This document shows, in pieces, positions 4,479 to 24,413 of a DNA stretch of 39,835 bases. This stretch comes from an uncultured Methanosarcinales archaeon. Lineage in GTDB: Archaea > Nanobdellota > Nanobdellia > Woesearchaeales > CAYNLP01. Position numbers and translations under genes: made by a program. Within the stretch, counting starts at the first letter, position 1. Every line of letters begins with the position of its first letter. The notes under the pieces were generated by a model, which saw only the letters and a program-made list of their open reading frames with translations, had not been told where the DNA came from and ran no database searches. The stretch lies in the NCBI GenBank assembly GCA_964398115.1, contig CAYNLP010000007.1:1-39835 (forward strand), read 5' to 3'.

Positions 4479-4508
4479 ATTTAAATACAAACCCATTACA
4501 CAACTACA

Positions 4509-4967
4509 ATGGATTTCATAGACCGAAGCGGAAACTACCGAGAAAAACCACGAGACAGAAAAGTCTACGAAAAAACCGCCGTGTACGGCGCAGCCAAGAA
4601 AGACGGACACATCTACGTAGTAAAACCAAAAACCATAGAAAGATGGGAACTACCAGGAGGCAACCTAAAAGAAGGAGAAAGCCTCAAACAAGCACTCAAA
4701 AGAGAAATAAAAACAAAAACTGGATACGAAATAGAAATAATCAAACCAGACATAATAGAACCAAAAACAGAACGATTCTACGCATACGACACAGATGAAT
4801 ATAGCATGAAAAAAATGCACTTCTACCGAATAAAACTAAAAGAAGAATTAAAAGACGAAATAGATGAAGAAATCAAACAAGCAAAGTGGGTGCCAGAAAC
4901 CAGCCTAAAACCAACCAACTCAAACGCAACCCAGTTAGAAGTGTTTGACGAGTTAAGAAAATCATAA
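4509..4967 (+). CDS. NUDIX-fold hydrolase
   Basis: WELPGGNLKEGESLKQALKREIKTKTG Nudix box, with the terminal EE replaced by TK. Confidence 0.85.
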   Translation: MDFIDRSGNYREKPRDRKVYEKTAVYGAAKKDGHIYVVKPKTIERWELPGGNLKEGESLKQALKREIKTKTGYEIEIIKPDIIEPKTERFYAYDTDEYSMKKMHFYRIKLKEELKDEIDEEIKQAKWVPETSLKPTNSNATQLEVFDELRKS

Positions 4968-5020
4968 CCTTTATATACTGCATGTAGCTATTCTAAACAC
5001 CGAGGGAGACACACAAAACA

Positions 5021-5287
5021 ATGCTAAAGATGAAGAGACTTTCGGAAACCTACGACATGAGAGTCTTTACCGACAGCGGAGACTACTTCGGAGACATCGA
5101 AGAAATAATTCTCACACAAAACAAAATCTTCGGATGGAGAGTAAGAGCCACAAGAGACAGCTTCCTCAGCAACGTACTAGGAAGCGCAAAAGGCGTCATC
5201 GTACCACACCAACTCGTCAAAGCCATCGGCGACATAATGATCATAAACAAAAGCGCCGTGCCAAGCTACGACGAAGACAAAGAATAA
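5021..5287 (+). CDS. PRC-barrel domain protein (CdpB-like candidate)
   Basis: VFTDSGDYFGDIEEIIL...VIVPHQLVKAIGDIMII stand-alone PRC-barrel pattern. Confidence 0.85.
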   Translation: MLKMKRLSETYDMRVFTDSGDYFGDIEEIILTQNKIFGWRVRATRDSFLSNVLGSAKGVIVPHQLVKAIGDIMIINKSAVPSYDEDKE

Positions 5288-5320
5288 TCTTTTAATACTC
5301 GACACTTCTAATACCAATTG

Positions 5321-6820
5321 ATGTTAAAAGACAAGAAAAAAATCTACATACTACTAGCAATACTATTCCTAACAGTATTCGCAACCAGAGCATACTTCAG
5401 CCTACAAACAGAAGGATTCACAACCGAAAGCTACTACCACCTAAGACACATAGAACACATAAAACAAACCGGCCTACCACTCTTCCAAGACCCGCTCAGC
5501 TATGAAGGAAGAGAATACTACTTCCCACCACTCTTCCACTACATAATGGCAGGACTAAGCTTCATAATACCCTTAAAACTACTAGCAAAACTAATACCCA
5601 ACCTCTTATTCAGCACACTAATACTAATAGTATACGCCATCGCCAACAGAGTAACAAACCACAAAGGATATAGCCTCCTAGCAGCATTCTTCTTCGCATT
5701 CACACCAATAAGCTTCACCTACCCCATAAATTCAGTCACCCCATACAGCCTAGCAATACCCCTCTTCTTCGGCGTAGTACATGCTATGCTAGACATGAAA
5801 AGCGAACTAAACACAATGCTAATCCTAATAGTCGCTCTCGTATTCACACACCCCACCGCATTCCTACTAGTCATAGGACTCATAACCTATCTAGCACTAC
5901 TAAAACTAGAAAACATGAGTGTCGACGAAAGAAGCAAAGAAATAATACTATTCACAATATTCCTCGTATTCTGGGCCTTATTCCTACTCTACAAAAACGT
6001 GTTCCTAACCCACGGCCTAGGAGCAATCTGGCTAAACCTCCCAGACACGCTCATGCAAAGCGCCTTCCCACAACCAAACATCTTCCAAATCCTATACTAC
6101 GTCGGAATGGTTCCTCTCTTTCTAGGAGTCTTGGGAGCATACGGAACAGTCTTTAAAAACACACGCAAAAACTTACTACTCCTCCTAGGAATAACCCTCT
6201 CAATATTCATCCCCCTATGGATGAACCTAATACGACTACAAACCGGTCTACTATTCCTCAGCGCCCTCCTATCAGTACTAGCAGCCGAAGGACTCCTAGC
6301 CAGAGCAAACTACATGAAGAAAACAAAATTTGAAAAGCTAAGAAAAGTAACAATATTCTTCCTCGTATTCTTCTTCATAATAAGCTCAGTCATACCACTA
6401 TTCGGAACAGCCCAAACCAAAGCCCAAAACACGCCAGACCCAAACGTGATAAAATCCCTACAATGGATGAAACAAAACACTTCAAAAAACAGCGTAATCC
6501 TCGCCCCCGTCAGCCAAGGCCACCTAGTAACATACTTCGCCAACAGAAAAAACGTTATGGACACAAACTTCCTAATGATAGACGACGTAAACGAAAGATT
6601 CCAAGACATAAAAAAAGTGTATAAAGCCAGAATACAAGCAGAAGCGCTAAGAATCATAGACAAATACGGAATAGACTACATACTATTAAGTCAAAAAGCC
6701 AAAGACGAATACGAAACCGATCAACTCTACTACACTGACAGTAACTGCTTCGAAAGAATATACAACGACAAAGTACAAATATACGAAGTAAAATGCCAAT
6801 ACCAAGGAGGTGAACAATGA
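5321..6820 (+). CDS. GT-C / AglB(STT3)-like polytopic membrane glycosyltransferase, paralog 1
   Basis: ESYYHLRHIEHI...DPLSY.G...PPLFHY N-terminus, many TM helices, C-terminal WMKQNT..SVILA....GHLVTYFANRKNVMD...YGIDYIL resembling the AglB soluble domain but without WWDYG. Confidence 0.65.
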   Translation: MLKDKKKIYILLAILFLTVFATRAYFSLQTEGFTTESYYHLRHIEHIKQTGLPLFQDPLSYEGREYYFPPLFHYIMAGLSFIIPLKLLAKLIPNLLFSTLILIVYAIANRVTNHKGYSLLAAFFFAFTPISFTYPINSVTPYSLAIPLFFGVVHAMLDMKSELNTMLILIVALVFTHPTAFLLVIGLITYLALLKLENMSVDERSKEIILFTIFLVFWALFLLYKNVFLTHGLGAIWLNLPDTLMQSAFPQPNIFQILYYVGMVPLFLGVLGAYGTVFKNTRKNLLLLLGITLSIFIPLWMNLIRLQTGLLFLSALLSVLAAEGLLARANYMKKTKFEKLRKVTIFFLVFFFIISSVIPLFGTAQTKAQNTPDPNVIKSLQWMKQNTSKNSVILAPVSQGHLVTYFANRKNVMDTNFLMIDDVNERFQDIKKVYKARIQAEALRIIDKYGIDYILLSQKAKDEYETDQLYYTDSNCFERIYNDKVQIYEVKCQYQGGEQ

Positions 6821-8202
6821 AGAGATTCCTCCAACAATGGGGTCCGTTGATAATAGTACTCATGGCCATAACCTTCTCCCTAGCCCCAGTAATGGTTAGA
6901 TCCGCCCAAGACCCACTCGTCCCCCTCGGAGAAAGCTACTACAACATGAGAATATCACAAGAACTGCAAGAAAACCCCACATTACAAAATGACCCCTTAC
7001 AAGAAAGACCATACAACCCCAACCTATACCACTACTTACTAGCACTACTACAACTATTCCTTTCAGATCAAGGATTGATAATGAGTTCCATAGCACTATC
7101 AGTAGCAAGCGCGTTCCTACTGCAAAAAGCATTAAGAGACTACGGCATGGACGAAAGAGCAATACTCGCCGTAGCCATATTCATACTATCACCCATATAC
7201 ATATACACCTCAACCACGCTAACCCCCTACACACTCACACTCTTCCTAATCACACTAACCCTTTACCTAAGAAATTGGTCCGCCGCCATACCAGCAGGAT
7301 TAACCGCTCTCACCAACCCATCCGTATTCCTAATACTAACAATAACTATGATAATACACAACCACCTAGGCGAAGAAAAACACCCCGCTTACTTAACTCT
7401 AGGCGTTGGGACAATACTCACAGGAGCAGCATATCTCTTCCTCGACTACATCCCCATAATAAAACTATTCAATGGAGGACTAGCACCCTTAAACTACATC
7501 ACCGACTTCGGCGCCACAGTAGGATACAGCTTCTTCGGCCTACTCCTAGCTATAGTGTCAATCCTACTATTCTGGAAAGATGACAAAAAATTCAGCAAAG
7601 GCGGCGTGATATACCTACTCCTACTACTAACGTCAACCACACTCGAACCAACACGACTACTCATAAACATAATAACCTCGATATACGCCGCATACGCCCT
7701 CTACTTCTTCATAACCCGAGAATGGATAGTATTAAACCTCAAAGACTTAACACTACTAATACTCTTCAGCAGCTTACTATTCTCCGCAGTATCATTCACA
7801 ACCCGAACATCCAACATGGAACCCACACACGAAACAATAAAAACACTAGAAACCATCAAAAACCAACAAATAAAAGGAACAGTCTTCAGCGATCCACAAA
7901 ACGGGTTCTTAATACAATACTACGCACAAAGAAAAAGCTATATGGACGAACTAAGCTTCCTATACAAAGGATACGAAGAGAAAAAACAAACCACACAAAC
8001 ATTATACACCAACTCAAAACCAAAAATAACCAAAAAACTCCTAGACGAAAACGACATAAGCTACATATATATAGACCAAAAAATGCAAGACAGGCTATGG
8101 CAAACACGAAATCAACTGCCTCTCGTCCTAGAACTCAGCGAAAACTTTATTAAACTCACAGATTTTCAAAACAGACAAGCTTGGCTCTACATAAGAACTT
8201 GA
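6817..8202 (+). CDS. GT-C / AglB(STT3)-like membrane protein, paralog 2
   Basis: ESYYNMR...DPL...NLYHY, many TM helices, VFSDPQNGFLIQYYAQRKSYMD...NDISYIY; same layout as upstream gene; GGAGGTG RBS and ATGA overlap. Confidence 0.6.
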   Translation: MKRFLQQWGPLIIVLMAITFSLAPVMVRSAQDPLVPLGESYYNMRISQELQENPTLQNDPLQERPYNPNLYHYLLALLQLFLSDQGLIMSSIALSVASAFLLQKALRDYGMDERAILAVAIFILSPIYIYTSTTLTPYTLTLFLITLTLYLRNWSAAIPAGLTALTNPSVFLILTITMIIHNHLGEEKHPAYLTLGVGTILTGAAYLFLDYIPIIKLFNGGLAPLNYITDFGATVGYSFFGLLLAIVSILLFWKDDKKFSKGGVIYLLLLLTSTTLEPTRLLINIITSIYAAYALYFFITREWIVLNLKDLTLLILFSSLLFSAVSFTTRTSNMEPTHETIKTLETIKNQQIKGTVFSDPQNGFLIQYYAQRKSYMDELSFLYKGYEEKKQTTQTLYTNSKPKITKKLLDENDISYIYIDQKMQDRLWQTRNQLPLVLELSENFIKLTDFQNRQAWLYIRT

Positions 8203-8212
8203 GGCTTTTAAA

Positions 8213-9457
8213 ATGATAACATTCGGGGATATACTCATATACGCCGTAGCTTTCTTTGGCATATATACAGCTACATTCTTCACACTAACAATGCTAGAAG
8301 GCACTAGAGAAGTAAAAAGAAAAAAAGAAACAGACTGGCGACCAGAAGTATGCGTTATAGTCCCTTGCTACAATGAAGAAAACACGGTAGAAAAAACCGT
8401 CGACTCACTTCTCAACCTCAACTATCCAAGAGAAAAACTAGACCTAATAGTAGTAGATGACGGAAGTACTGATAACACCTACGAAGTAGCAAAGAAATAC
8501 GAAGAAAAAGGAGTAAGAGTATTCCAAAAAGAGAACGGGGGGAAACACACAGCACTAAACCTAGGCTTAGAAAAAACAGACGCAGAAATAGTAGGAGCAC
8601 TAGACGCAGACAGCCACGTGGATCCCGACGCACTAAAACGAATGATACCATACTTCGAAGAAGACGACGTAGCAGCAGTCACCCCCGCACTCAAAATAGA
8701 CAAACCCGACACATGGCTACAAATGGTACAAATGATCGAATACCTAATCGGTATATTCCTAAGAAAAGTATTCGCCATGCTCGGAAGCAACCACGTCACA
8801 CCCGGCCCCTTCACCTTATTCAAAAAAAGCTTCTTCGAAGAACACGGACCATACCGAGAAGCATACCTCACAGAAGACATCGAAATGGCATTGCGAATAG
8901 AAAAATATAACTACCAAATAGAAAATGCACCAAACGCATACGTATACACTATAGGCCCACCCACATTCAAAGGCTTGTTAAACCAAAGAAGAAGATGGTA
9001 CTACGGATTCATACAAAACACGTTAGACTATAAAGAACTCTTCAGCAGAGAACACGGAAACCTCGGACTATTCGTACTACCAAGCGCCTTCATATCCGTC
9101 CTCTTAGTAATCCTAACACTCCTCTACACCGGATTCAAACTCACAACTAAGGCATGGGAAAGATTCCAATACATGCAAGCGATAAACTGGGACTTCATGG
9201 AAATATTAGAATTCAACTTCGACCCATTCTTTCTAAACTTCAACGACACCGTAATGCTAGGATTCCTAGTAATGGCCATCAGTATAGCACTAATATTACT
9301 AGCCAAAAACGTGGCAGGAGAAAACGAACAGATAAAATACCACTACATAGTCTATGTATTAATCTACTGGCTACTATTTGGATTCTGGTGGATAGTCGCG
9401 TTTTGGAACAAACTTCTTAACAAAGAAAACTATTGGAATCACAAAAGCGCTGATTGA
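8213..9457 (+). CDS. Processive GT2 glycosyltransferase (cellulose synthase/PgaC-like)
   Basis: VPCYNEE, DDGSTD, GKHTALN, DAD, TED and QRRRW motifs with flanking TM helices. Confidence 0.9.
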   Translation: MITFGDILIYAVAFFGIYTATFFTLTMLEGTREVKRKKETDWRPEVCVIVPCYNEENTVEKTVDSLLNLNYPREKLDLIVVDDGSTDNTYEVAKKYEEKGVRVFQKENGGKHTALNLGLEKTDAEIVGALDADSHVDPDALKRMIPYFEEDDVAAVTPALKIDKPDTWLQMVQMIEYLIGIFLRKVFAMLGSNHVTPGPFTLFKKSFFEEHGPYREAYLTEDIEMALRIEKYNYQIENAPNAYVYTIGPPTFKGLLNQRRRWYYGFIQNTLDYKELFSREHGNLGLFVLPSAFISVLLVILTLLYTGFKLTTKAWERFQYMQAINWDFMEILEFNFDPFFLNFNDTVMLGFLVMAISIALILLAKNVAGENEQIKYHYIVYVLIYWLLFGFWWIVAFWNKLLNKENYWNHKSAD

Positions 9458-9459
9458 TC

Positions 9460-10110
9460 ATGGCGGGAAACAAATACAAAGAAATGGATAAAATGAAGTA
9501 CTTCGCAGTACTTCTACTCACAATCATAATATTCGCTTCAGGAATCCTACTAGGCAACTACATCTCAGGAGAAAAAGCCGAACAACTAAACGAAGTACAG
9601 GAAAACATCAAATTAAGAACTCTCGGAGCAGAAACACAATTCCAACTCATGACAATGGACCCCTGCCAATTCATAAATAGCACACCTCTCACCCAAGACT
9701 TATATGAACTCTCGGAAAAACTAGACCACTTAGAAACACTGATGGGAAAAGACAGTGACCAAGTAAAAAGACTCAAAGAAAGATACAGCATACTAGAAAT
9801 AAGACACTGGCTTTACACTAAAAAAACTAATGAAGAGTGCGGAACCAACCACACACCCATACTCTACTTCTACAGCAACCAAGGAGACTGTGCAAAATGC
9901 GAGGAACAAGGATACGTATTAACCTATTTACGCAGAAAATACCCTAATTTAAGAGTTTACAGCTTCGACATCCACATGGAAAACCCAGCTTTAAACACTG
10001 TAAAAGACATCTACGACGTAAGACAACCCCCAACACTCATAGTAGGGTCTAGAGTATACCGAGAATTCCAAACACGAAATGACATGGAAAAAATCCTTGG
10101 AAAAGTTTAA
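9460..10110 (+). CDS. Membrane-anchored thioredoxin-fold protein
   Basis: N-terminal TM, helical region, ILYFYS...CAKC, cis-Pro-like QPPTLIV. Confidence 0.7.
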   Translation: MAGNKYKEMDKMKYFAVLLLTIIIFASGILLGNYISGEKAEQLNEVQENIKLRTLGAETQFQLMTMDPCQFINSTPLTQDLYELSEKLDHLETLMGKDSDQVKRLKERYSILEIRHWLYTKKTNEECGTNHTPILYFYSNQGDCAKCEEQGYVLTYLRRKYPNLRVYSFDIHMENPALNTVKDIYDVRQPPTLIVGSRVYREFQTRNDMEKILGKV

Positions 10111-10111
10111 T

Positions 10112-10567
10112 TCACTGGATTTGAACCATGTCCCCAATGGTCATACTCTTTGAAGTACTCTTTTGTTCCCTTTCAAGTTTCTCCTCATACTCGTCAACCA
10201 ATTCAATATCGAGAAACTTTTCAACCTTCCTAGCCAAGTCAATACTAGGCTCCATACGACCAGTTTCCAAATGATGAATCACACTTTCCTTCTCCCCAAT
10301 TTTATGAGCCATTTCTTCCTGCTTCAAACCACGGCTTTCCCTCTCAGACTTAATCATTTCCGGATAGCCATCTTTAATCACCGTGATAACTTTAGACCTT
10401 TCAGGCTCTTCCCTAACTTCAGACTTATCCTCTTTCTTTTCTTTAGCTTTGGTAACTTTAGAAATCACCTCTCCGTAATTAGAACAAGATTTACACACTT
10501 GCATCTCTGCACCTTCTAACTTCGTATTAAAGAGTTGTTCTTCAGAACCACACATATCGCAACGCAT
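10112..10567 (-). CDS. mbf1: Archaeal multiprotein bridging factor 1 (Zn ribbon + HTH)
   Basis: CDMCG...EGAEMQVCKSC Zn ribbon; RESRGLKQEEMA..IGEKESVI..LETG HTH; TIGD C-terminus. Confidence 0.92.
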   Translation of the reverse strand: MRCDMCGSEEQLFNTKLEGAEMQVCKSCSNYGEVISKVTKAKEKKEDKSEVREEPERSKVITVIKDGYPEMIKSERESRGLKQEEMAHKIGEKESVIHHLETGRMEPSIDLARKVEKFLDIELVDEYEEKLEREQKSTSKSMTIGDMVQIQ

Positions 10568-10613
10568 GATACACCCCCTTCTCCTATAACATTATAAATG
10601 GTGAAAAGAATAT

Positions 10614-11771
10614 TTAAGTGTTTGCCTCAATTTTCAAAATTACATATTCTAACTCTCCCGTCCGTATTTCATGCCACTCCTCCACAGAAAAACCATGCTT
10701 ATCAGCCGCCTCAACAAACAAATCCGTATGGATCATCAAAGCCACAATACAACCATCCTCAGATAAGACATAATCAGCTTGGTAAAACAACTCATCATAA
10801 ACTTCTTCTATATCATCTTCATCCTTGCTCTTAGTATTTTGAGGAGGTTGAGTCACAATAACATCCACCTCTCCCTCGTTAAATTCAGTATCTAACCATT
10901 CAACACCCACTTTGGAAAAATTAATTACTTCACTCATGCCTGCTATTTCAGCATTGTTCTTTCCATACTTCAAATTGTTCAAGTTAACATCAAAACCATT
11001 AACATCTAAACCAGACAAATCAGACCTAGAATTTATATTTCTAAACCACTCCATCCAATCCTCACCTTCCAATGGTTTCAAATTTTGAAAAGCGAAATCT
11101 CTATCACGAGCATGAACCGGAACCTTACTCGCATGATAAACCGCTTCTAACACTATAGGAGCAGAACCACAAAATGGGTCCAAAAACTTATCATCTTTTT
11201 CATACTCAGAAATCCTAACCAAAGAATAAGCAATATCACCTCTAACTGTCGTAGGATGTGAATAAACTTTGTAATTCCTCTGACTTAAATCTCTACCCGC
11301 AAAGTCAATCCCTAAACAGCAAAAATCATTTAACACATAACAGTAAAAAGTTACATCCGGCTCTTCTAAAGAAACACTAGGAGTAAAATCTAAACTTTCC
11401 TCAACCTCCTCAACAACCACGTCACCAAGAGACTTCTCAACCTCAGGACTATTAAAACCCTGCTCTCCCTGCCTATCACAAACAACCCTGAAATCAACAT
11501 CCTTACCTAACCATTTAGAAAAGTTAAAATCGTCAAAACAAGTACGAGATTTCTCAACCAAATCCTCCAAGTCTTCAAACTCAAAACTACCTATCTCCGC
11601 TAAAACTCTCGTGACAGACTGTCCAGTATAAGTAAATTCACAAACATCTAAAATGTCAGCTTCAAACCTGACACCACATTCAAGAACTTCGGTTTCCGCA
11701 TCGATCTTGTCCCTTATTTCGTCAGCGACGAACTCTTTTAATCCTTGGTCAGTCAAAGCAATCGCTTTCAT
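10614..11771 (-). CDS. THUMP-domain class I RNA methyltransferase (Trm14/RlmL-like)
   Basis: THUMP region, GIDFAGRDLSQRNY, LDPFCGSAPIVLEA SAM motif, TQPP; ATG at 11771. Confidence 0.85.
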   Translation of the reverse strand: MKAIALTDQGLKEFVADEIRDKIDAETEVLECGVRFEADILDVCEFTYTGQSVTRVLAEIGSFEFEDLEDLVEKSRTCFDDFNFSKWLGKDVDFRVVCDRQGEQGFNSPEVEKSLGDVVVEEVEESLDFTPSVSLEEPDVTFYCYVLNDFCCLGIDFAGRDLSQRNYKVYSHPTTVRGDIAYSLVRISEYEKDDKFLDPFCGSAPIVLEAVYHASKVPVHARDRDFAFQNLKPLEGEDWMEWFRNINSRSDLSGLDVNGFDVNLNNLKYGKNNAEIAGMSEVINFSKVGVEWLDTEFNEGEVDVIVTQPPQNTKSKDEDDIEEVYDELFYQADYVLSEDGCIVALMIHTDLFVEAADKHGFSVEEWHEIRTGELEYVILKIEANT

Positions 11772-11807
11772 GTTGAGAAATTGAAACAATGCCTTTATTA
11801 TAAATGT

Positions 11808-12521: not shown

Positions 12522-12529
12522 ACTATTAT

Positions 12530-13472: not shown

Positions 13473-13518
13473 TGGATTAAAGGCACACGTGATTAACTTA
13501 TAAAAACTTGTCGGACAC

Positions 13519-13857: not shown

Positions 13858-13869
13858 ATTATCACCTTT

Positions 13870-14046: not shown

Positions 14047-14075
14047 TTTTACAATTGGTAGGTAAGCAACTTTAA

Positions 14076-14113
14076 TTTATAAAGGTTTCCGGAAACCCCC
14101 AAGAATTTATAAA
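14076..14113. promoter_or_regulatory. Back-to-back TATA boxes flanking a 14-bp palindrome
   Basis: TTTATAAA at 14076-14083 and 14106-14113; GGTTTCCGGAAACC at 14084-14097; between divergent genes. Confidence 0.6.
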
Positions 14114-14986: not shown

Positions 14987-15034
14987 AAACAATTTTTTCA
15001 AAAAATTTCTTAGGACACGTTAGAAAAAATGTGT

Positions 15035-15374: not shown

Positions 15375-15407
15375 CCTTAAATTACAAGTTTGAGAATTTA
15401 TAAAACT

Positions 15408-15911: not shown

Positions 15912-15951
15912 ACGCTCACTTTATGTTCTATTTTGTAATAAATCTTTTCAT

Positions 15952-16353: not shown

Positions 16354-16400
16354 ATTGTCTGGAAAAACTTTTGAAGTTAAAAAGAATTGCGGTTCAAGCA

Positions 16401-16422
16401 TATTTATTGTCCATATTGAAAA
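16401..16422 (+). repeat. 22-bp dispersed intergenic motif, copy 3 (TATTTATTGTCCATATTGAAAA)
   Basis: 21/22 identity to copy 1; between divergent yjbQ and gnd. Confidence 0.85.
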
Positions 16423-16475
16423 TAAATATTTGTTAAACACAACTTTTTTATTCCAACAAAACCCGAACAGAAAAT

Positions 16476-17924: not shown

Positions 17925-19261
17925 CGGAAAACGTAACTATAATAATTCTCGGAGGAACAGGTGACCTATCAAGGAAAAAACTAATACCCAGTATATACCA
18001 ACTCTACAAGAAAGACAGACTCGATGAATTCACAGTCATAGGGACCTCAAGAAATAAATACACAGACAAGGAATTCAGACAAATATTTACAGAAAACATA
18101 GAAAACAAAGATAAATGGGATGAATTCAAAAAACATATCAAATTTAATCAACTAGACTTCTACCATGAAGAAACCTTCAAAACTTTAAAAGAAAAACTGG
18201 ACTGCTGCCCAGAAAACCGAATATTCTACTTATCAACCCTACCACAACACTTCGAACAAATAACACAAAATCTAGGAAACCACGATCTCATAAACGAACA
18301 AAGCAAAGTTATGTACGAAAAGCCATTCGGACACGACCTCCAAAGCGCGAAAGAACTAAACAACTGCATACACAAACACTTCCCAGAAGACAGAGTATAC
18401 CGAGTAGATCACTATCTAGACAAAGAACTAGTAGAAAACATATCAATACTGAGATTCACTAATACCTTACTACAACCAATCTGGAACGACGAATACATAG
18501 ATCACATACAAATAGCTATGAGCGAAGACTTCGGAGTAGAAAAAAGAGGAGGATTCTACGATGAAACCGGAGCGATAAAAGACGTATTTCAAAACCACAT
18601 ACTACAAATGCTCGCCCTAACCACGATGGAAGAACCAGACCAATTTGAAAGTGAAGAAATACGAAATGAAAAAGTAAAACTACTAAAAAAAGTGCAAATA
18701 CAGCAAATAATAACAGGACAATACGAAGGCTATACCCAAGAAGAAGGAGTAGATGAAAACAGCAATGTTGAAACCTTCGCCACGATGAAAGCAGCTATAA
18801 ATGGATGGGAAAACACCCCAATATACCTAGTCAGTGGCAAAAATCTAGAAAAAGAAATGGCACAAATATACATTGAGTTCAAAAATACACCATGCGAACT
18901 CTTCAAAGATAAATGCTCACTAGAACCAAACAGTATAGTCATAAACATAAAGCCCGAAGGCACAATATACTTTACTATAAATACTAAAGTACCAGAAAAA
19001 ATAGAAACAGAAAAAAACAAATTCGAATTCTGCTACAGCTGCCAACATGGTCCAAACACACCCGAAGCATACGAAAATGTATTCTGGCAAGCCATACAAA
19101 ACAACCACACCCCTTTTATCAGAAGCGATGAAATAGAAGAACAATGGAAAATAATCGATACTTTAAAGAAACCTCAACCATTCACATACGAAAAAGGAAA
19201 ATTCCCAGAAGAAGCCAAAGTCTTCATACAAGAAGACGGGCGTGAATGGTACAATCTATGA
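17921..19261 (+). CDS. zwf: Glucose-6-phosphate 1-dehydrogenase (bacterial Zwf type)
   Basis: GGTGDLSRKKL, EKPFGHDL, RVDHYLDK, RGGFYD..GAIKDVFQNHILQ, PEAYE. Confidence 0.95.
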   Translation: MTENVTIIILGGTGDLSRKKLIPSIYQLYKKDRLDEFTVIGTSRNKYTDKEFRQIFTENIENKDKWDEFKKHIKFNQLDFYHEETFKTLKEKLDCCPENRIFYLSTLPQHFEQITQNLGNHDLINEQSKVMYEKPFGHDLQSAKELNNCIHKHFPEDRVYRVDHYLDKELVENISILRFTNTLLQPIWNDEYIDHIQIAMSEDFGVEKRGGFYDETGAIKDVFQNHILQMLALTTMEEPDQFESEEIRNEKVKLLKKVQIQQIITGQYEGYTQEEGVDENSNVETFATMKAAINGWENTPIYLVSGKNLEKEMAQIYIEFKNTPCELFKDKCSLEPNSIVINIKPEGTIYFTINTKVPEKIETEKNKFEFCYSCQHGPNTPEAYENVFWQAIQNNHTPFIRSDEIEEQWKIIDTLKKPQPFTYEKGKFPEEAKVFIQEDGREWYNL

Positions 19262-19980
19262 AAGACGTAAAAACCATCTCGGAAGAAAATAAAGAAAAAC
19301 TAGCAGAAAAAACGTGCAAAGCTTTCATAAAAGAATTAAAAAATCTTTTACAGGATCAAGATAAAGTCATCGTAAGCCTTTGCGGAGGAAAATCTGTAAG
19401 AAAATTCTATAAGAAAATTCCTAAACATGCGAAAAAACTAGACCAGGAAGACTGGGAAAACATACACTTCTTCTTCACAGATGAAAGAATAGTAAATCCA
19501 TTAGATGAAGGAAGCAATCACAAACAAGCGAGAGACCTGTTCCTCATGGACCTAGGAAGGATGAAGCTGTTACTAGAAGAAAATGTTCACCGATTCCATG
19601 GTCAAAAAGAAAATATAAACGAAGAACTGGCAAGATACGATGACATGCTAAATGAACTCGGAGGCGACATAGACATCGCAATAATGGGAGTAGGAAAAGA
19701 CGGACATATAGGAAGCTTATTCCCAAACAAAGAAGAACTAGACGCGGAAAGAAAAGAATACCTGTTAGTCACTAACAGTCCTAAACCACCAGCGGAGAGA
19801 ATAACAATAGCCCCTAAACACATAGAAAAATCACAAACCAACTTTTTATTCTTCATAGATGAAGAGAAAGAAAAAGCATATAAGAAATTCCAGGATGAAG
19901 AAGCCGATTATCACAACTGGCCATGTAAACTTGCGTTAAAAGGCGAAGGAACTTGTTACGTTTCAACTAACTTAGCATAA
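19258..19980 (+). CDS. pgl: 6-phosphogluconolactonase (Pgl/NagB fold)
   Basis: LCGG.S, FFTDER.V, SN, MGVG.DGHIGSLFP, SPKPPAERIT; ATGA overlap with zwf. Confidence 0.9.
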   Translation: MKDVKTISEENKEKLAEKTCKAFIKELKNLLQDQDKVIVSLCGGKSVRKFYKKIPKHAKKLDQEDWENIHFFFTDERIVNPLDEGSNHKQARDLFLMDLGRMKLLLEENVHRFHGQKENINEELARYDDMLNELGGDIDIAIMGVGKDGHIGSLFPNKEELDAERKEYLLVTNSPKPPAERITIAPKHIEKSQTNFLFFIDEEKEKAYKKFQDEEADYHNWPCKLALKGEGTCYVSTNLA

Positions 19981-20035
19981 CATTTAAATACTAATCTCGG
20001 CTGGTTTAGGAACAGAAAAAAGAGGTGGGAGTGAG

Positions 20036-20902
20036 TTGAGCTTAACAGACGAAGAACTGGAATTCTTAGAAAATAAAGCTAATGAGATTAGAGAAGATAT
20101 TATTAAAACTCTTCTAAACGCTGGCTCGGGACACAGTGCAGGACCTCTTGGAATGGCAGACGTGATGACTGCCTTATACTTCCACGTCATGAACCACGAT
20201 CCAGACAATCCTGACTGGGAAGAAAGAGACAGGATGGTATTAAGCAACGGACACATCTGTCCAGGTCTTTACGTAACACTCGCACATGCTGGATACTTCC
20301 CACGAGAAGAACTGAAAACGTTAAGAGAACTTGGAACCAGACTTCAAGGACACCCACACAACGTTGTAACACCTGGCATTGAAAACAGCAGCGGTCCGTT
20401 AGGACATGGTCTGAGCCAAGCATGTGGAATGGCAAAAGCAGCTCTGATGGATGATAAAGACTGGCACGTATACTGCCTAATGAGCGACGGCGAACAAGAA
20501 GAAGGAAACACTTGGGAAGCAGCAATGTTCGCCGGCAATAATGAACTTAGAAACCTAACCGCAATAATGGACCGAAACAACATACAAATTGATGGCTATA
20601 CAGAACATGTCATGCCATTAGAACCATTAAGAGAAAAATACGAAAGTTTCGGATGGCACGTACAAGAAGTAGACGGACATAACATAAGGGAAATAATAGA
20701 TGCGATAAATGAAAGCAAAGCAATATATGAAAAACCAAGCATGATAATAGCCCACACAATACCAGGTAAAGGCGTAGACTTCATGGAAAAAGACTACCAC
20801 TGGCACGGCAAACCACCCAATGAAGAACAAGCTCAAAAAGCATTAGAACAACTTCACAAAATAAGAACATTACAAGGGGAAATCACAGGTGAACACGAAT
20901 GA
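20036..20902 (+). CDS. Transketolase, N-terminal (TPP-binding) subunit
   Basis: SGH, RDRMVLSNGH, LQGHP, GPLGHG, SDGEQEEG.TWEA, DRNNIQIDG, HWHG. Confidence 0.95.
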   Translation: MSLTDEELEFLENKANEIREDIIKTLLNAGSGHSAGPLGMADVMTALYFHVMNHDPDNPDWEERDRMVLSNGHICPGLYVTLAHAGYFPREELKTLRELGTRLQGHPHNVVTPGIENSSGPLGHGLSQACGMAKAALMDDKDWHVYCLMSDGEQEEGNTWEAAMFAGNNELRNLTAIMDRNNIQIDGYTEHVMPLEPLREKYESFGWHVQEVDGHNIREIIDAINESKAIYEKPSMIIAHTIPGKGVDFMEKDYHWHGKPPNEEQAQKALEQLHKIRTLQGEITGEHE

Positions 20903-22129
20903 TAAACGAAAGTCTGAACTTCGTAAAAAACCTATATGGAGACTTAGAAGAAAAACCTACCAGAAACGGATACGGCCATGGCGTGTTACAAGCAGGAAAA
21001 GAAAATGAAGACATCNNNNNNNNNNGTCCTGTGCTGTGACTTAACAAGCTCAACTAGAAGCCACTTCTTCAAAGAAGAATTCCCAGAAAGATTCGTAGAA
21101 GTAGGAGTGGCAGAACAAAACATGGCAGGACTAGCAGCAGGCATGAGCTTTGCAGGAAAAATCCCCTACATCTCAAGCTACGCAGTTTTCAATCCAGGAA
21201 TAAACTGGAGTCAGATAAGAGTAGCCATATGTTACAGCCAAGCCAACGTGAAAATAATGGGAGCACACGCAGGCATATCAGTAGGTCCAGACGGAGCAAC
21301 CCACCAAGCACTAGAAGACATAGCCATAACTAGAGTACTACCCAACCTCACAGTAGTGGTGCCATGCGACTTCCATCAAGCAAAGAAAGCCGCACAAGCC
21401 ATAGCAAAAGTAGACGGACCATGCTATATGAGATTTGCACGAGCCGAAACACCAATATTCACAACAGAAGAAACACCATTCCAGATAGGAAAAGCACAAA
21501 CCTTCAAATATGGACAAGACGTGACCATAATAGGAGCAGGTCCGGTCATATATGAAGCATTGAAAGCCGCCAAAGAATTAGAAAAAGAAGATGTGAGCAC
21601 GAGAGTGATAAACCTACATACTATAAAGCCGATGGATAAAGAAGCCGTGTTAAGAGCAGCAAAAGAAACCGGAGCCATAGTAACTGTAGAAGAACATCAA
21701 AAACACGGAGGGATAGGAAGCGCAGTTTCAGAATACCTTTCAAAAGAAAATCCGGTACCTATAGAAAGAGTAGCAATTGACGACAGATTCGGAGAAAGCG
21801 GCGATCCCAAAAAATTATTGGATGAAGTAGGACTTACCGCTCCATACATTAAAGAAGCCGTGTACAAAGCAATAAGTAAAAAAGGACAAGTACCTCCAGA
21901 ATTCAGACAACCATTCCACCTAGAAAATGGTGAAGTAATAAGAACAAAGAAAGAACTCATATACGCCTTGCAAGAACACCCCACAATTTACGAACATCAC
22001 GTACACGAAGACAGAAACGACTTCGCAAATTGGATAAGAGACGTCATGCACGAAACTAGCTTAGCAAGTCACATAGACAAAGCACAAAGTCGAGAAGAAA
22101 CTATACAAATTTTGAAAAACCACCTGTAA
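20899..22129 (+). CDS. Transketolase, C-terminal subunit with an extra C-terminal domain (contains assembly gap)
   Basis: ATG 20899 (MINESLNF..PTRNGYG), gap 21016-21025, then GVAEQNM, GPDGATHQALED, TVEEHQ..GGIG; about 80-aa extension PFHLENG...NDFANWIRDV. Confidence 0.9.
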
Positions 22130-22130: not shown

Positions 22131-23249
22131 CTATTTCCAACGCTTAGAATAACGCTTGTTTCTGAAACTACCAAACATATCAGCTAACTTACCCTCTGTT
22201 ACAAAATCCTTCCAAACAAATATCGACTTACCTCTTCCAAGACTAATCCACATCGGAGTTTTCTTAAACTCAAAATATTTCTTCTCTCCTTCATTCATAA
22301 TACTTGCTAAATTATGAGCAACGAGTTTAGCTTCTCTAACACTATGTCCTAAACTACTCAATTCTGGACCTTTATACTTCACATGTCTAGCCCTACCTGC
22401 CTGGCCCAAAGCGTAAATAGTAGCTTCATTAACACTCTGCAAATAAGGATTTACCATGACACGTCCATCCCCATCAGTGTGTAACTTATGATCAGACAAC
22501 ACACCCTCTGGTTTCACCCCTCCACACCAGATAACGTTTGAACTTCTAAAACTATCGCTATCCAAAACCACTTGTTCCTCCCGAACCTCTTCTACCTTAG
22601 AATTAAGTCTGACATCAATCCCTTCCCGACTCAAATGAGTGTGAGCTATCTCTCCAGCTTTTGACGGGAATTCAGGAAGCAACCTATTCTTTTCCTCAAC
22701 TAAAACTAGCTCTACATCAATCCTCCTAACATCTAAACCTTTACAACAATCGTCAAGGAATTCATTCAACTCACTCGCTAACTCAACACCTGCTGGACCT
22801 CCACCACATACAGTTATAGTTAAATCCGCATCATCAGGGTCAGACAATGAATCCTTAATATTCTCTTTAATAACTTCTGAATCCTTCGCAGTAAGATACT
22901 GCATCAAGTTCGAATTGTCAAAATTAGTGACTTGAGGCTTAGAATAGACTAGGAAGTCAAAACTTTCTTCACCATCAGCCAAAATCAACTCTTTATTATT
23001 CAAATTTATATCCTGAACTTCACTTTCAATAAATTCAATGCCGTTGTCAGAAAATAGGAAGTCGAGGTTAACGGCGACATCACTTTCATCCTTCCCTCTA
23101 AAAACTTCTTTTATCCAAGGTCTATAAGTAAAGAAGCCATCACTATGAACTGCAACAATCTCAACATTATCATCTACTTTCTTATTCAATCGCAAAGCAG
23201 TTTCTATACCGCCCACACTACACCCAGTAATGACAATCTTGGTTTTCAT
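22131..23249 (-). CDS. NDH-2/AIF-like FAD-dependent pyridine nucleotide oxidoreductase
   Basis: GGGPAGVELASE, RLLP.F, VIWCGGVKP, GRVMVNPYLQ, ISLG; first dinucleotide motif degenerate (GCSVGG). Confidence 0.8.
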   Translation of the reverse strand: MKTKIVITGCSVGGIETALRLNKKVDDNVEIVAVHSDGFFTYRPWIKEVFRGKDESDVAVNLDFLFSDNGIEFIESEVQDINLNNKELILADGEESFDFLVYSKPQVTNFDNSNLMQYLTAKDSEVIKENIKDSLSDPDDADLTITVCGGGPAGVELASELNEFLDDCCKGLDVRRIDVELVLVEEKNRLLPEFPSKAGEIAHTHLSREGIDVRLNSKVEEVREEQVVLDSDSFRSSNVIWCGGVKPEGVLSDHKLHTDGDGRVMVNPYLQSVNEATIYALGQAGRARHVKYKGPELSSLGHSVREAKLVAHNLASIMNEGEKKYFEFKKTPMWISLGRGKSIFVWKDFVTEGKLADMFGSFRNKRYSKRWK

Positions 23250-23277
23250 CTCTAAAAATGAGCACCAAATAAAATAT

Positions 23278-23646
23278 TTAAAGGTTCTGCTCCAAACTCC
23301 ACTTCCCTGGACCCGTGAAGAACAATGCTAAACTCGTAAAGGAAAGTGCTAAGTCATAAACTCCTCCAGGATAACCCAATTGTATGAAGATAAGAAAAGT
23401 CCATCCTGCAGAAGCCAAAGCTACAAATTTTGTTAAAAAACCCGCAAGTAATAAACAAGCTAGAATGATCTCCACTACCCCTGTGAATAACACTAAGAAC
23501 TTAGTAGAAAAAGGAATTAAATTAACTAACCATAAATTTTCAAAAGTTGTAACGTTAATCGATAATTCTGTAAATTTCTTGATACCAAAATGTATGAATA
23601 GCAAAGCTAACCCAATTCTTAGTAACAAACCTGCGTATTTCTTCAT
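23278..23646 (-). CDS. DoxX-family membrane protein
   Basis: LLRIGLALLFIHFGIKK, E......LLAGFLTK, GPGKWSLE; ATG 23646 overlaps the upstream stop. Confidence 0.88.
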   Translation of the reverse strand: MKKYAGLLLRIGLALLFIHFGIKKFTELSINVTTFENLWLVNLIPFSTKFLVLFTGVVEIILACLLLAGFLTKFVALASAGWTFLIFIQLGYPGGVYDLALSFTSLALFFTGPGKWSLEQNL

Positions 23647-24371
23647 TCTACCACCAAAGTTCCTGTCATGCTGGAATGACCAGTACCACAATAAACCGTG
23701 CACTTAATCTTAAACCTTCCAGTCTTATCTGGAGTAAACCGCACCGTAACATTCTCTCCAACAGGCAATACTTCATTAACCCCGAAAGCAGAAATTCCAA
23801 GTCCATGATCAACATCCATGCTCCGCGCATGAATAACTACAGGAACGCCTTCAGTAACATTAACTGTGCTTGGTTCAAACCTGTACTTTTTAGCCACTAA
23901 ATTAATTTCCTGAACTTCCCGTTCCGGACTTTCTACTTCTTTCTCATCTCTTTCTGAACTATTCTCAGATGATTCATCTATCACTTTTTTAACAATCGTA
24001 TTAGAAGTATATCTTTGACCATTAACGTCTGCATTTGCTTGAATATATACTGTGCCTGTTTCATCAAAACTTAGATTATCCGAGAAAATATCTGAGCCTC
24101 CCTTCGCCGCGGTTTCTTTTGCGTTAAAAAATTCTTTAGAATAACTCGCTTGAAGATTTGTTGTAACCTCTTCACTACTTCTTACATTCCAAACAAATTC
24201 ATAACTTTGATTCACTAACAAACTATCTTCAGGCACTTTCGAAAACTCAACGCTAACATTAACTTCATTCTTTTCTTCTGGAGAAGAAGTGGGCTGATTT
24301 TGAGAAGATTGACAACCTACTACTAATAAGAAACCTATAAAGCTTATCAAGGTTTTGTTCAACTTTCCCAC
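23643..24371 (-). CDS. Lipoprotein with C-terminal CuA-type cupredoxin domain
   Basis: VVGC lipobox; DVDHG and CTVYCGTGHSSM match the binuclear CuA ligand pattern. Confidence 0.85.
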   Translation of the reverse strand: MGKLNKTLISFIGFLLVVGCQSSQNQPTSSPEEKNEVNVSVEFSKVPEDSLLVNQSYEFVWNVRSSEEVTTNLQASYSKEFFNAKETAAKGGSDIFSDNLSFDETGTVYIQANADVNGQRYTSNTIVKKVIDESSENSSERDEKEVESPEREVQEINLVAKKYRFEPSTVNVTEGVPVVIHARSMDVDHGLGISAFGVNEVLPVGENVTVRFTPDKTGRFKIKCTVYCGTGHSSMTGTLVVE

Positions 24372-24413
24372 CTAATGTTAGGAAAAAAGACTATGGTTTT
24401 AATTATTTAACGT

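What the first reader, a model, noticed from the sequence alone, without database searches (positions are those of the whole stretch)
4480..24400. Strong local strand skew independent of gene orientation that appears to reset at the 22-bp motif
Seen by eye, not computed: just right of copies 2 (4478) and 3 (16422) the plus strand becomes very A/C-rich, with codons such as CTA, ATA, ACA, AAC, TTC. Minus-strand genes in the same blocks (THUMP methyltransferase, MinD, NDH-2) use T/G-ending codons (GTT, GAG, TTT, GAT), so the bias follows the DNA strand rather than transcription. It fades around 14-16 kb and after about 24.5 kb. Left of copy 1 the plus strand is G/T-rich, and left of copy 4 the minus strand is A-rich. 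Inference: an asymmetric DNA process (many replication starts or stops, resection, or ssDNA transfer) is anchored at these sites every 4-25 kb, unlike the usual two-replichore skew. Caveat: hjc (2454) is also A/C-rich with no full motif nearby, and the 100-N gap may hide a junction.
Basis: partly seen in the sequence, partly recalled or inferred. Interest (0 to 1): 0.72.

Follow-up and report, generated by a model that had tools for sequence, protein, structure and literature searches.

The report
Operon-bounded extreme strand skew in archaeon
One DNA strand of a 22-kb stretch of this small archaeal contig has lost almost all G and T at freely evolving sites whichever way the genes point, which is as extreme as in mitochondria and starts sharply at three operon heads, two of them carrying a conserved palindromic motif.

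Summary
The skew is real and very strong. At fourfold sites the plus-strand genes at 4509-10110 are about 92% A+C. The minus-strand genes behind them are T/G-rich on their own coding strand. 22 of 23 genes in 4480-24400 are A/C-rich on the plus strand.

The bias is the same in every codon family and shifts first-position A/G, so it is mutational and follows the DNA strand. It is not tRNA selection and not a gene-orientation effect.

Change points lie at 2345, 4518, about 12960, 16536 and 24305. Two sit beside motif copies 2 and 3. That co-location is not significant once positions are limited to intergenic gaps (p=0.16). Copy 1 starts no skew, and hjc starts one without a full motif.

The motif is a palindrome conserved across Woesearchaeota-type genomes. 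It lies next to orc1/cdc6 in 8 of 33 loci, and those loci show no skew change at it.

My best reading (0.38) is a local process anchored at transcription-unit heads that repeatedly exposes the minus strand as single-stranded DNA. The main rival (0.30) is a mosaic of DNA segments with different skew histories. The whole genome could not be fetched.

The parts
527..548 (+). Motif copy 1 (TTATTGTC-TATATT-GAAAA...), 55 nt upstream of the metallo-beta-lactamase-fold (MBL) gene. No skew onset here.
   Evidence: Flanking genes have plus-strand third-position A+C minus G+T (AC3) of -0.21 and -0.08. The same motif-MBL arrangement occurs in L008, L033 and L047.
1..2353 (+). Left flank (EamA fragment, MBL-fold, YjeF_N, an 80-aa ORF): no A/C skew, slightly G/T-rich.
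   Evidence: Segment mean -0.20 with an orientation term of 0.15, or -0.14 with 0.09. Per-gene values.
2397..2429 (+). Conserved promoter element upstream of hjc (GCACTGGACATTCGCCCG..TATTTAAA). No full palindrome.
   Evidence: The same element directly abuts the palindrome in L064, L083 and L104.
2454..2858 (+). hjc, a single-gene skew island in its ancestral position.
   Evidence: Fourfold sites A32 C15 G1 T2. AC3 +0.70, z=+6.4. Orthologs in L008, L033, L047, L049 and L056 have AC3 of -0.23 to +0.22.
2855..4379 (-). ZIP transporter, PD-(D/E)XK nuclease and a 59-aa ORF: intermediate skew, flat.
   Evidence: Plus-strand AC3 +0.14 to +0.17. Segment mean +0.21 to +0.32.
4454..4475 (-). Motif copy 2 in a divergent intergenic region, 34 nt before the ATG at 4509. 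Sharp skew onset at 4518.
4509..10110 (+). Plus-strand unit: NUDIX, PRC-barrel, two large membrane proteins (the first GT39-like), GT2 and a 218-aa ORF. Strongest skew.
   Evidence: AC3 +0.62 to +0.80, z up to +14.6. Slope -0.034 per kb, p=7e-4. No run of five or more T on the plus strand from 4397 to 11195. Pfam; homologs.
10112..12960 (-). Convergent minus-strand genes (HTH, THUMP methyltransferase, MinD/ParA-type, a 162-aa ORF) carrying the same plus-strand A/C excess.
   Evidence: Coding AC3 -0.28 to -0.43, z down to -13.9. L008 orthologs are unskewed. Change point at 12276-12960.
12961..16475 (.). Low-skew interval: a 164-aa ORF, NAC, FKBP, RNase P RNA (15035-15374, minus strand), a 167-aa ORF and UPF0047.
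   Evidence: Segment mean +0.16 to +0.18. RNase P RNA scores 140.9 bits.
16404..16425 (+). Motif copy 3 in a divergent intergenic region, 50 nt before the ATG at 16476. Sharp skew onset at 16536.
16476..22129 (+). Plus-strand unit: 6PGD, G6PD, 6-phosphogluconolactonase and a split transketolase. Strong skew.
   Evidence: AC3 +0.42 to +0.61. Slope -0.025 per kb, p=0.04. Pfam.
22131..24371 (-). Convergent minus-strand genes (NDH-2-type oxidoreductase, DoxX, cupredoxin-like) with a decaying plus-strand A/C excess.
   Evidence: Coding AC3 -0.35, -0.13 and -0.21. Slope -0.14 per kb, p=0.01.
24372..24585 (.). Right boundary of the skewed domain (change point 24305) and the 100-N run at 24486-24585.
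24414..39689 (-). Unskewed right flank: a 1806-aa Ig-like repeat protein, a cytidylyltransferase, the DUF58-MoxR-VWA/BatA cluster and a ROK kinase.
   Evidence: Segment mean -0.01 to -0.07. z between -4.2 and +1.7. Pfam.
39734..39755 (+). Motif copy 4, 80 nt from the contig end.

Best explanation
The contig comes from a Woesearchaeota-like DPANN archaeon. Over about 2.35-24.3 kb the minus strand has lost C and A and gained T and G at nearly every weakly constrained site. This is a mutational bias that follows the DNA strand.

Its strength is set by transcription unit. It jumps at the 5' ends of three plus-strand units: hjc, the NUDIX-glycosyltransferase unit and the oxidative pentose-phosphate unit. 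It stays high through each unit and leaks, decaying, into the convergent minus-strand genes that abut their 3' ends.

Mechanism I commit to (inferred): the minus strand to the right of these unit heads is repeatedly left single-stranded, where C deaminates to U and A to hypoxanthine. The likely cause is that leftward-moving replication forks are slowed, arrested or broken while running head-on into these units or their promoter-bound complexes. The lagging-strand template behind the fork is then exposed or resected.

The 22-bp palindrome is a conserved protein-binding site in promoter and origin regions. It marks two of the three unit heads but is not the reset signal.

Shown: the bias, its strand character, its block structure and the position of the onsets. 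Inferred: single-strand exposure, fork direction and the role of transcription.
For: - Strand-level and mutational. The same direction appears in all 21 synonymous codon families compared, including Leu CTN versus TTR. First-position A/G tracks third-position skew (slope 0.19, p=1e-4). Amino-acid composition shifts in the skew direction in 3 of 3 proteins compared with homologs (z=+1.45, -2.08, +0.85).
- Geometry. All 3 sharp rises in the window lie at 5' ends of plus-strand units. In relative L008 both extreme genes (AC3 +0.71 and +0.70 on their own coding strands, in opposite orientations) begin at their own 5' ends. The second is followed by convergent genes at +0.44 and +0.31.
- In all 4 cases where a strongly skewed plus-strand unit meets a convergent gene, the two abut or overlap, and the downstream gene is A/C-rich on the plus strand: +0.35 to +0.44 in 3 cases and +0.14 for ZIP after hjc.
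- All four within-orientation slopes are negative.
- Sign. For a break, the reverse strand is the single-stranded one to its right, and C>N and A>N changes fall on the exposed strand (PMC7615360, passages).
- In place, not assembled in. hjc and the HTH, MinD and NAC genes keep the gene order seen in L008 across the 2.3-4.5 kb change points.
- No sign of foreign origin. Third-position G+C is similar in skewed and unskewed parts. The nearest homologs of a block gene and of a flanking core gene are similarly distant, at 52% and 55% identity.
Against: - No precedent known to me for kb-scale, operon-anchored skew of this size in a cellular genome.
- There is no clear reason why hjc or a NUDIX-glycosyltransferase unit should be affected when the plus-strand MBL/YjeF_N genes and FKBP are not.
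- The decay length of several kb is long for gaps behind a fork.
- The right edge of the second block drops sharply at 24.3 kb rather than tailing off.
- In L008 the tandem gene downstream of the left island is unskewed, and the MBL gene next to the motif is unskewed.
- Three other archaeal loci (L016, 18.7 kb; L049, 20 kb; L021, 7.3 kb) are skewed throughout, including genes that are strongly G/T-rich on their coding strand.
- Across the four skewed loci only 29 of 46 same-orientation junctions decline (p=0.10). A constant strand term plus a small orientation term fits them about as well.
- Fork direction and expression levels are unknown.
Confidence: 0.38

Rival explanations
1. Mosaic history. 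The skew was written elsewhere or at another time. Some Woesearchaeota-type genomes, or large domains of them, carry a strong replication-type strand bias. On this view the window mixes segments that lived under that bias with segments that did not, joined by transfer, recombination or rearrangement, so the change points are segment borders.
For: - Loci skewed throughout, whatever the gene orientation, exist: L016 (-0.08 to -0.59), L021 (+0.37 to +0.76) and L049 (0.00 to +0.46). They carry housekeeping genes.
- In L008 the skewed genes are exactly those absent from the MBL-hjc interval of L047, L033 and L049.
- The window's 4509-10110 is an insertion relative to L008.
- A step model with six segments fits after a small orientation term is removed.
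- The right edge at 24.3 kb is sharp and lies close to a 100-N run.
- The two nearest THUMP homologs share its G/T-type amino-acid shift.
Against: - Skew near saturation (G+T about 8% at fourfold sites) would require three very recent imports, all in the same polarity.
- Core genes in ancestral order (hjc, HTH, THUMP, MinD) are skewed, while neighbouring core genes (MBL, NAC, FKBP) are not. Replacing hjc alone needs crossovers at both gene ends.
- Homologous exchange between skewed and unskewed alleles that differ at most third positions should be rare (inference).
- Third-position G+C and nearest-homolog distances show nothing foreign.
- All four within-block slopes are negative.
- Whether any genome is skewed as a whole is not shown.
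Confidence: 0.3
2. Ordinary replication skew of unusual strength over one fork-direction domain. Its amplitude is lowered gene by gene where codon selection resists it, for example in well-expressed housekeeping genes.
For: - One sign across 2.35-24.3 kb.
- The low-skew interval holds NAC, FKBP and RNase P RNA.
- L049, L016 and L021 fit a constant strand term plus an orientation term of about 0.06-0.08.
Against: - 15 kb of unskewed accessory genes to the right and unskewed MBL/YjeF_N to the left need separate explanations.
- ZIP and the PD-(D/E)XK nuclease are unlikely to be highly expressed, yet are only weakly skewed.
- In L049 the sign does not switch at the orc1-adjacent site.
- A 22-kb replication domain is implausibly small.
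Confidence: 0.12
3. An effect of transcripts alone. Either there is selection for G/U-poor, unstructured RNAs, or there is mutagenesis along read-through or reverse-transcribed transcripts, and replication plays no part.
For: - Onsets lie at unit heads, and every strongly skewed unit is A/C-rich on its coding strand.
- The plus-strand units end without a spacer and without any plus-strand run of five or more T until 11196 and 23887. The minus-strand units have such runs just past their stops.
Against: - Known transcription-linked asymmetries make the coding strand G/T-rich (recalled, and stated in passing in 10.1101/808410, passage).
- Selection on a read-through antisense RNA has no rationale.
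- The scarcity of T runs follows from the composition itself.
- L016 and L049 need a strand term in both gene orientations.
Confidence: 0.07
4. One reading: each motif copy is a replication origin or a single-strand transfer origin that fires rightward.
For: - The palindrome lies in the long intergenic region beside orc1/cdc6 in 8 of 33 archaeal loci.
- Two onsets sit at copies 2 and 3.
Against: - Rightward forks would make the plus strand G/T-rich under the usual rule, which is the wrong sign.
- There is one copy per orc1 region rather than an array.
- 7 of the 8 orc1 loci are unskewed on both sides, and L049 shows no switch.
- Copy 1 is inert. Motif-facing genes elsewhere are unskewed.
Confidence: 0.05
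5. Assembly chimera: skewed and unskewed parts come from different organisms and were joined at the shared motif or at N runs.
For: - Two change points lie at a repeat shared within the contig and across species.
- One change point lies 181 bp from a 100-N run.
Against: - Gene order across the 2.3-4.5 kb change points matches L008: MBL, hjc, PD-(D/E)XK nuclease, then HTH, MinD and NAC.
- The exact repeat is only 19-26 bp, shorter than the final k-mers of common assemblers (inference).
- All three N runs lie inside ORFs that stay open across them. Pfam matches resume right after the N run in two of them.
Confidence: 0.03

Closest known systems
Replication-associated strand asymmetry in bacteria, where codon usage splits by leading versus lagging strand (for example Lawsonia intracellularis, PMC2671203, seen in search listing and abstract only; Borrelia recalled)
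   Same: Keto versus amino bias that follows the DNA strand whichever way the genes point. It is visible in synonymous codons and, more weakly, in amino acids.
   Different: In those genomes there are two chromosome-long domains that switch sign at the origin and terminus, with far lower amplitude. Here the domain is 22 kb, has internal sawteeth, lies next to 15 kb of unskewed DNA, and has fourfold sites that are about 92% A+C.
Vertebrate mitochondrial strand asymmetry (PMC11792237, listing and abstract only; details recalled)
   Same: Comparable amplitude and the same bases: an A/C-rich strand with a few percent G at fourfold sites. It also shows a gradient attributed to time spent single-stranded.
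   Different: That is a whole small replicon with one origin pair and strand-displacement replication. This is a chromosomal segment of an archaeon, with several onsets at operon heads.
Strand-asymmetric mutation around programmed DNA breaks in human recombination hotspots (PMC7615360, passages read)
   Same: Site-anchored and polar. C and A are lost on the strand left single-stranded by 5'-to-3' resection. To the right of the site that is the reverse strand, which matches the sign seen here.
   Different: There the effect is symmetric on both sides, extends 1-2 kb, and is seen as a slight excess of new mutations. Here it is one-sided, extends 2-8 kb, and has driven composition close to saturation.
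Sawtooth skew domains of mammalian chromosomes, with jumps at replication initiation zones (recalled, no call)
   Same: Abrupt jumps separated by gradual decline.
   Different: Those domains span megabases, have small amplitude and cross zero. The jump polarity there is that of origins. Here the polarity is that of fork convergence or arrest.
Compositional anomalies of transferred or inverted segments (genomic islands)
   Same: Block borders at gene boundaries. The skewed blocks include accessory operons, and in L008 the skewed genes are lineage-specific insertions.
   Different: Core genes in ancestral order are also skewed. Nothing else about the blocks looks foreign, and the skew is graded within them.

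Membership tests
Replication (leading/lagging) strand skew | Bias follows the DNA strand, not gene orientation | tested here: met
   22 of 23 genes in 4480-24400 are A/C-rich on the plus strand. Minus genes inside versus outside differ at p=0.0006.
Replication (leading/lagging) strand skew | Sign switches at an origin or terminus, and each domain spans a whole replication arm | tested here: not met
   The domain is about 22 kb with unskewed flanks. The window has no orc1/cdc6. L049 shows no switch at its orc1-adjacent site. The whole genome was not available.
Replication (leading/lagging) strand skew | Mutational origin (all synonymous classes affected, with a weak amino-acid effect) | tested here: met
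Transcription-associated strand asymmetry | Sign reverses with gene orientation | tested here: not met
   Minus-strand genes in the blocks carry the plus-strand bias. Only a small orientation term of 0.08-0.09 is fitted.
Translational codon selection | Preferred codons are family-specific and match the tRNAs | tested here: not met
   The direction is uniform across all families, and it is mirrored on the opposite strand.
Transferred genomic island | Absent from the same position in relatives | tested here: inconclusive
   4509-10110 is absent between the PD-(D/E)XK nuclease and HTH genes in L008. However, the skewed hjc, HTH, MinD and 12530 genes keep L008's order, and L008 shares only 34-54% protein identity.
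Transferred genomic island | Foreign composition or unusually close homologs elsewhere; integrase or tRNA at the border | tested here: not met
   Third-position G+C is similar across blocks. Best homologs are at 52%, 55% and 76% identity. No tRNA gene was found and no integrase.
Archaeal replication origin (origin recognition boxes plus an AT-rich unwinding element beside orc1/cdc6), considered for the 22-bp motif | Adjacent to orc1/cdc6 | tested here: inconclusive
   Met in 8 of 33 related loci, but not in the window.
Archaeal replication origin, considered for the 22-bp motif | Several repeated boxes around an unwinding element; skew polarity switch | tested here: not met
   The orc1-adjacent intergenic regions hold one full copy each, at 0-3 mismatches. 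L059 adds two 5-mismatch matches nearby, and L018, L049 and L078 have only distant weak matches. No switch is seen.
Xer/dif-type recombination site, considered for the 22-bp motif | Two inverted arms around a 6-bp spacer, single copy per chromosome, near a Xer-type recombinase | tested here: inconclusive
   The architecture fits (8-11-bp arms and a 6-bp spacer). A tyrosine recombinase lies beside it in 2 of 33 loci. But there are 4 copies in this 40-kb contig, and 45 of 59 neighbouring genes face it with their 5' ends. The arm order differs from the epsilonproteobacterial sites listed in PMC3325230 (passage).

The most novel reading that the evidence does not exclude
In some DPANN archaea a DNA transaction anchored at particular operon heads exposes one strand over several kb so often that it overrides all other mutation there. 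Candidates are arrest or breakage of forks that meet these units head-on followed by resection, or conversion through reverse-transcribed read-through transcripts. The result would be mitochondria-grade skew written as 'teeth'. If so, the synonymous-site profile is a fossil map of fork-transcription encounters, and the palindromic motif regulon (orc1, gyrA, hjc, a Xer-like recombinase, a primase-like Toprim protein) would mark where they occur.
Probability: 0.3. Interest if true: 0.85.

Novelty: new variant of a known kind. Interest (0 to 1): 0.58.

Why it matters
Strand skew is normally a faint, chromosome-wide trace of replication direction. Here it is local, bounded by operons, and close to saturation.

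If it arises in place, it means local mutation spectra in an uncultured archaeon can be dominated by a single polar process. Composition alone could then be used to read replication and transcription dynamics in organisms that cannot be grown.

If it is a mosaic, it shows that some Woesearchaeota-type lineages carry an unreported extreme strand bias, and that skew can trace gene flow among them.

Either way, the codon-usage heterogeneity is large enough to mislead binning, gene-transfer detection and phylogeny in these genomes.

Tried and rejected
- Codon selection through tRNAs: rejected, because the bias is uniform across all codon families and mirrored on the other strand.
- Synonymous-only or artefactual recoding: rejected, because first-position A/G and amino-acid composition shift as well, and public records show the same phenomenon.
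- Gene-specific conserved bias: rejected, because orthologs of hjc, HTH, MinD, GT2 and transketolase in other loci are unskewed.
- Faster protein evolution of skewed hjc than of unskewed MBL: no clear difference. The window's protein is the most divergent sequence for both.
- A sawtooth as a general rule in the other skewed loci: weak (29 of 46 declines, p=0.10).
- Motif-driven genes being skewed in general: no.
- Antisymmetric pattern around each motif copy, as expected for a two-ended break: not seen at copies 2 and 3.
- tRNA genes or integrases at block borders: none found.
It was redone with 8-codon bins.
The question stays open.
- Literature. The pair 'Woesearchaeota' and 'GC skew' returned one paper, unrelated by title and abstract. 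The DPANN and cumulative GC skew search produced nothing on regional skew in its 12 listed titles and abstracts. The strand-asymmetry, archaea and codon-usage search returned bacterial and general papers among the 15 listed. Neither 16-mer of the motif occurs in the library.

Full report
**What the window is.** The genes are archaeal: Hjc, NAC, a THUMP methyltransferase and archaeal RNase P RNA. Gene order and the motif are shared with records titled Woesearchaeota or Nanoarchaeota. The window's own proteins are listed with a longest contig of 39835 bases, so the window appears to be a whole contig. N runs lie at 21016-21025, 24486-24585 and 38277-38286, each inside an ORF that stays open across it.

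**The observation.** I used two measures. AC3 is A+C minus G+T at third codon positions. The second is base composition at fourfold sites.

- Plus-strand genes at 4509-10110 have AC3 of +0.62 to +0.80. Fourfold sites of 5318-6820 are A128 C69 G7 T9. hjc has +0.70, and 16476-22129 has +0.42 to +0.61.
- The minus-strand genes that follow are T/G-rich on their own coding strand. For example, 10614-11789 has A15 C8 G23 T82. They therefore carry the same plus-strand A/C excess: +0.38 falling to +0.13 over 10112-13857, and +0.35 to +0.21 over 22131-24371.
- 22 of 23 genes in 4480-24400 are A/C-rich on the plus strand. Inside versus outside differs for plus genes (p=0.007) and for minus genes (p=0.0006). 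Against 1000 shuffles of synonymous codons among all genes, z runs from +14.6 to -13.9.
- The flanks are different: 1-2353 is slightly G/T-rich and 24414-39689 is unskewed.

**Nature of the bias.**

- Every two-fold and four-fold codon family shifts the same way. In skewed plus-strand genes, NNY codons are 72-88% C-ending and NNR codons 90-96% A-ending. In the skewed minus-strand genes, NNY codons are 69-83% T-ending. Leu CTN versus TTR follows the same direction. That rules out tRNA-specific selection.
- First-position A versus G tracks the third-position skew across the 36 ORFs (slope 0.19, p=1e-4). Second positions do not.
- Three proteins compared with their database homologs all shift in the expected direction: the GT39-like protein z=+1.45, THUMP z=-2.08, Hjc z=+0.85.
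- The bias is therefore mutational, old enough to drive conservative amino-acid replacements, and filtered by selection. That also rules out a sequencing artefact.
- Orthologs of hjc, HTH, MinD, GT2 and transketolase in other loci are unskewed, so the bias does not belong to the gene families.

**Structure.**

- Dynamic-programming segmentation of 12473 third positions gives change points at 2345, 4518, 12276-12960, 16536 and 24305. The points at 4518, 16536 and 24305 appear in all settings but the strictest penalty, where only 24305 and one internal break remain. The orientation term was set to 0.09 or 0.15.
- Segment means are about -0.2, +0.2 to +0.3 (with hjc at +0.66 when it is resolved), +0.56 to +0.60, +0.16 to +0.18, +0.41 to +0.43 and about 0.
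- Within each block, and within one gene orientation, the skew declines from left to right. The slopes are -0.034 per kb (p=7e-4), -0.095 (p=2e-4), -0.025 (p=0.04) and -0.14 (p=0.01). The jointly fitted orientation term is 0.08-0.09.
- These p-values treat codons as independent. Gene-to-gene scatter is larger than that: the unskewed giant gene also shows a significant slope.
- The three sharp rises all sit at the 5' ends of plus-strand units. Each unit ends abutting or overlapping a convergent gene: 2858/2855, 10110/10112 and 22129/22131.
- The plus strand has no run of five or more T between 4397 and 11195. That fits read-through transcription, but it also follows from the composition itself.

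**The motif.**

- The window holds four exact matches to TTATTKTCYATATTGAAAA, against 0.21 expected.
- The full element is a palindrome, TTATTTTC-TATATT-GAAAATAA.
By record title, 48 are Woesearchaeota, Nanoarchaeota, Nanoarchaeia, 'uncultured Methanosarcinales archaeon' or 'Euryarchaeota archaeon SM23-78'. Of these, 33 came with 5.7-20 kb of sequence. The source contig was not among them.
- In these loci and the window, 45 of the 59 neighbouring genes face the motif with their 5' ends.
- In 8 of the 33 loci the motif sits in the long intergenic region next to orc1/cdc6. It lies next to gyrA in 3, next to a tyrosine recombinase in 2, and next to the MBL gene in 3, as at copy 1 here.
- hjc lacks the palindrome but has a second conserved element at 2397-2429, which abuts the palindrome in L064, L083 and L104.

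**Does the motif reset the skew?**

- In the window, two of five change points lie 53 and 123 bp from copies 2 and 3. That gives p=0.006 for random positions, p=0.16 among the 20 intergenic gaps, and p=0.17 among the 4 divergent gaps.
- Copy 1 has no effect.
- In the 28 loci without strong skew, the 34 genes that face the motif do not differ from their locus median (+0.019, p=0.2).
- Seven of the eight orc1-adjacent loci have an absolute AC3 of 0.05 or less on every side that holds several genes. Three sides that hold a single gene reach -0.10, -0.14 and -0.23. L049 is skewed with the same sign on both sides (+0.23 and +0.33).
- The motif is therefore a conserved protein-binding site that often lies at promoter regions. 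It is neither sufficient nor necessary for an onset.

**Relatives with skew.** Four of the 33 loci show strong skew.

- L016 (18.7 kb held), L049 (20 kb) and L021 (7.3 kb) are skewed throughout in both gene orientations and carry housekeeping genes.
- L008 shares gene order with the window: MBL, hjc, the PD-(D/E)XK nuclease, HTH, MinD, two ORFs and NAC, at 34-54% protein identity. It is unskewed except for two small genes of no known family and their neighbours.
- One of these, at 9508-9930 on the minus strand, is directly beside the motif and has coding AC3 +0.71.
- The other, at 11084-11503 on the plus strand, has +0.70. It is followed by convergent M48 and LemA genes at +0.44 and +0.31 on the plus strand.
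- The MBL gene between the two is unskewed.
- The right-hand group is absent from the MBL-hjc interval in L047, L033 and L049.

**Explanations.** Two readings survive.

(a) A local, polar process anchored at unit heads.
- It accounts for onsets at 5' ends (3 of 3 in the window, 2 of 2 in L008).
- It accounts for every strongly skewed unit in the window and L008 being A/C-rich on its coding strand, and for spill-over into convergent downstream genes (4 of 4, weak after hjc).
- It accounts for the declining slopes, and for hjc being a single-gene island in its ancestral place.
- The sign requires the minus strand to be the exposed one to the right of the site. That is what resection from a break gives (PMC7615360, passages). 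It is also what the lagging-strand template of leftward forks gives (established replication geometry).
- I therefore favour arrest or breakage of leftward forks that meet these units head-on.

(b) A mosaic of segments with different skew histories.
- It accounts for the fully skewed loci elsewhere, the match between skew and insertion in L008, the step-like fit and the sharp right edge at 24.3 kb.
- It needs three very recent imports of one polarity and a gene-precise replacement of hjc.
- It also needs exchange between alleles that differ at most third positions.
- Nothing else about the blocks looks foreign. Third-position G+C is similar, and the best homologs lie at 52% identity for a block gene and 55% for a flanking core gene.

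Other readings rank lower.
- Origin firing at the motif has the wrong sign.
- A pure transcript effect cannot explain L016 and L049.
- A chimera is contradicted by synteny across the left change points.

**What stays open.**
- The whole-genome profile, fork direction, expression levels and read support.
- I found no paper describing such regional skew in DPANN archaea. Neither 16-mer of the motif occurs in the library.

Noticed in passing
window 527-548, 4454-4475, 16404-16425, 39734-39755; loci L001-L116: The 22-bp element is a palindrome (TTATTTTC-TATATT-GAAAATAA) conserved almost letter for letter in 48 archaeal records. It lies beside orc1/cdc6 (8 of 33 loci), gyrA (3), a tyrosine recombinase (2), a Toprim protein, an Lhr helicase, ScpB and TFE. 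This looks like the operator of a DNA-replication or chromosome-maintenance regulon, or an origin-region site. The window has an unusual 4 copies in 40 kb, three of them with a G in the left arm, a variant shared only with L008.
   Followed up: partly
window 2397-2429; L064, L083, L104, and in reverse L052, L087, L107: A second conserved element, GCACTGGACAT(TCGCCCG...TATTTAAA), directly abuts the palindrome in several genomes. It stands alone upstream of hjc in the window.
   Followed up: partly
window 1-39835: The window's own proteins are listed with a longest contig of 39835 bases, so the window seems to be a complete contig. Motif copies lie 527 nt from one end and 80 nt from the other.
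   Followed up: no
window 16476-22129: A complete oxidative pentose-phosphate set (6PGD, G6PD, 6-phosphogluconolactonase) with a split transketolase in one operon of a DPANN-type archaeon. Next to it are an NDH-2-like oxidoreductase, DoxX and a cupredoxin-like protein.
   Followed up: no
window 24414-29834: A 1806-aa ORF with Ig-like (Big_13) repeats and a DNA periodicity of about 280-300 nt (repeat family D1). The 100-N run lies inside it and the frame stays open across it.
   Followed up: no
window 15035-15374 (-): Archaeal RNase P RNA (RF00373, 140.9 bits) in the 421-nt G+C-richer gap between FKBP and a 167-aa ORF. No tRNA gene occurs anywhere in the contig.
   Followed up: yes
window 30630-38088: A DUF58-MoxR-VWA/BatA-type cluster (aerotolerance-operon-like) with DUF7502, DUF7406, DUF7407 and DUF7408 domains. 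The MoxR and DUF58 orthologs are adjacent in L046.
   Followed up: no
window 4200-4379 (-): An unlisted 59-aa ORF with a GGTGGAGG ribosome-binding-like sequence and a hydrophobic N-terminus. It lies between the PD-(D/E)XK nuclease gene and motif copy 2.
   Followed up: no
L016, L021 (titles say 'uncultured Methanosarcinales archaeon'), L049: Whole fetched loci (7-20 kb) of housekeeping genes with strong strand skew in both gene orientations. Several records titled Methanosarcinales share gene order (SpoIIM-motif-orc1; MBL-hjc-EndA) with Woesearchaeota records, so the titles may be misassigned.
   Followed up: partly
L076:5818-9444: A GyrA gene carrying an intein (Intein_splicing domain) next to the motif.
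   Followed up: no
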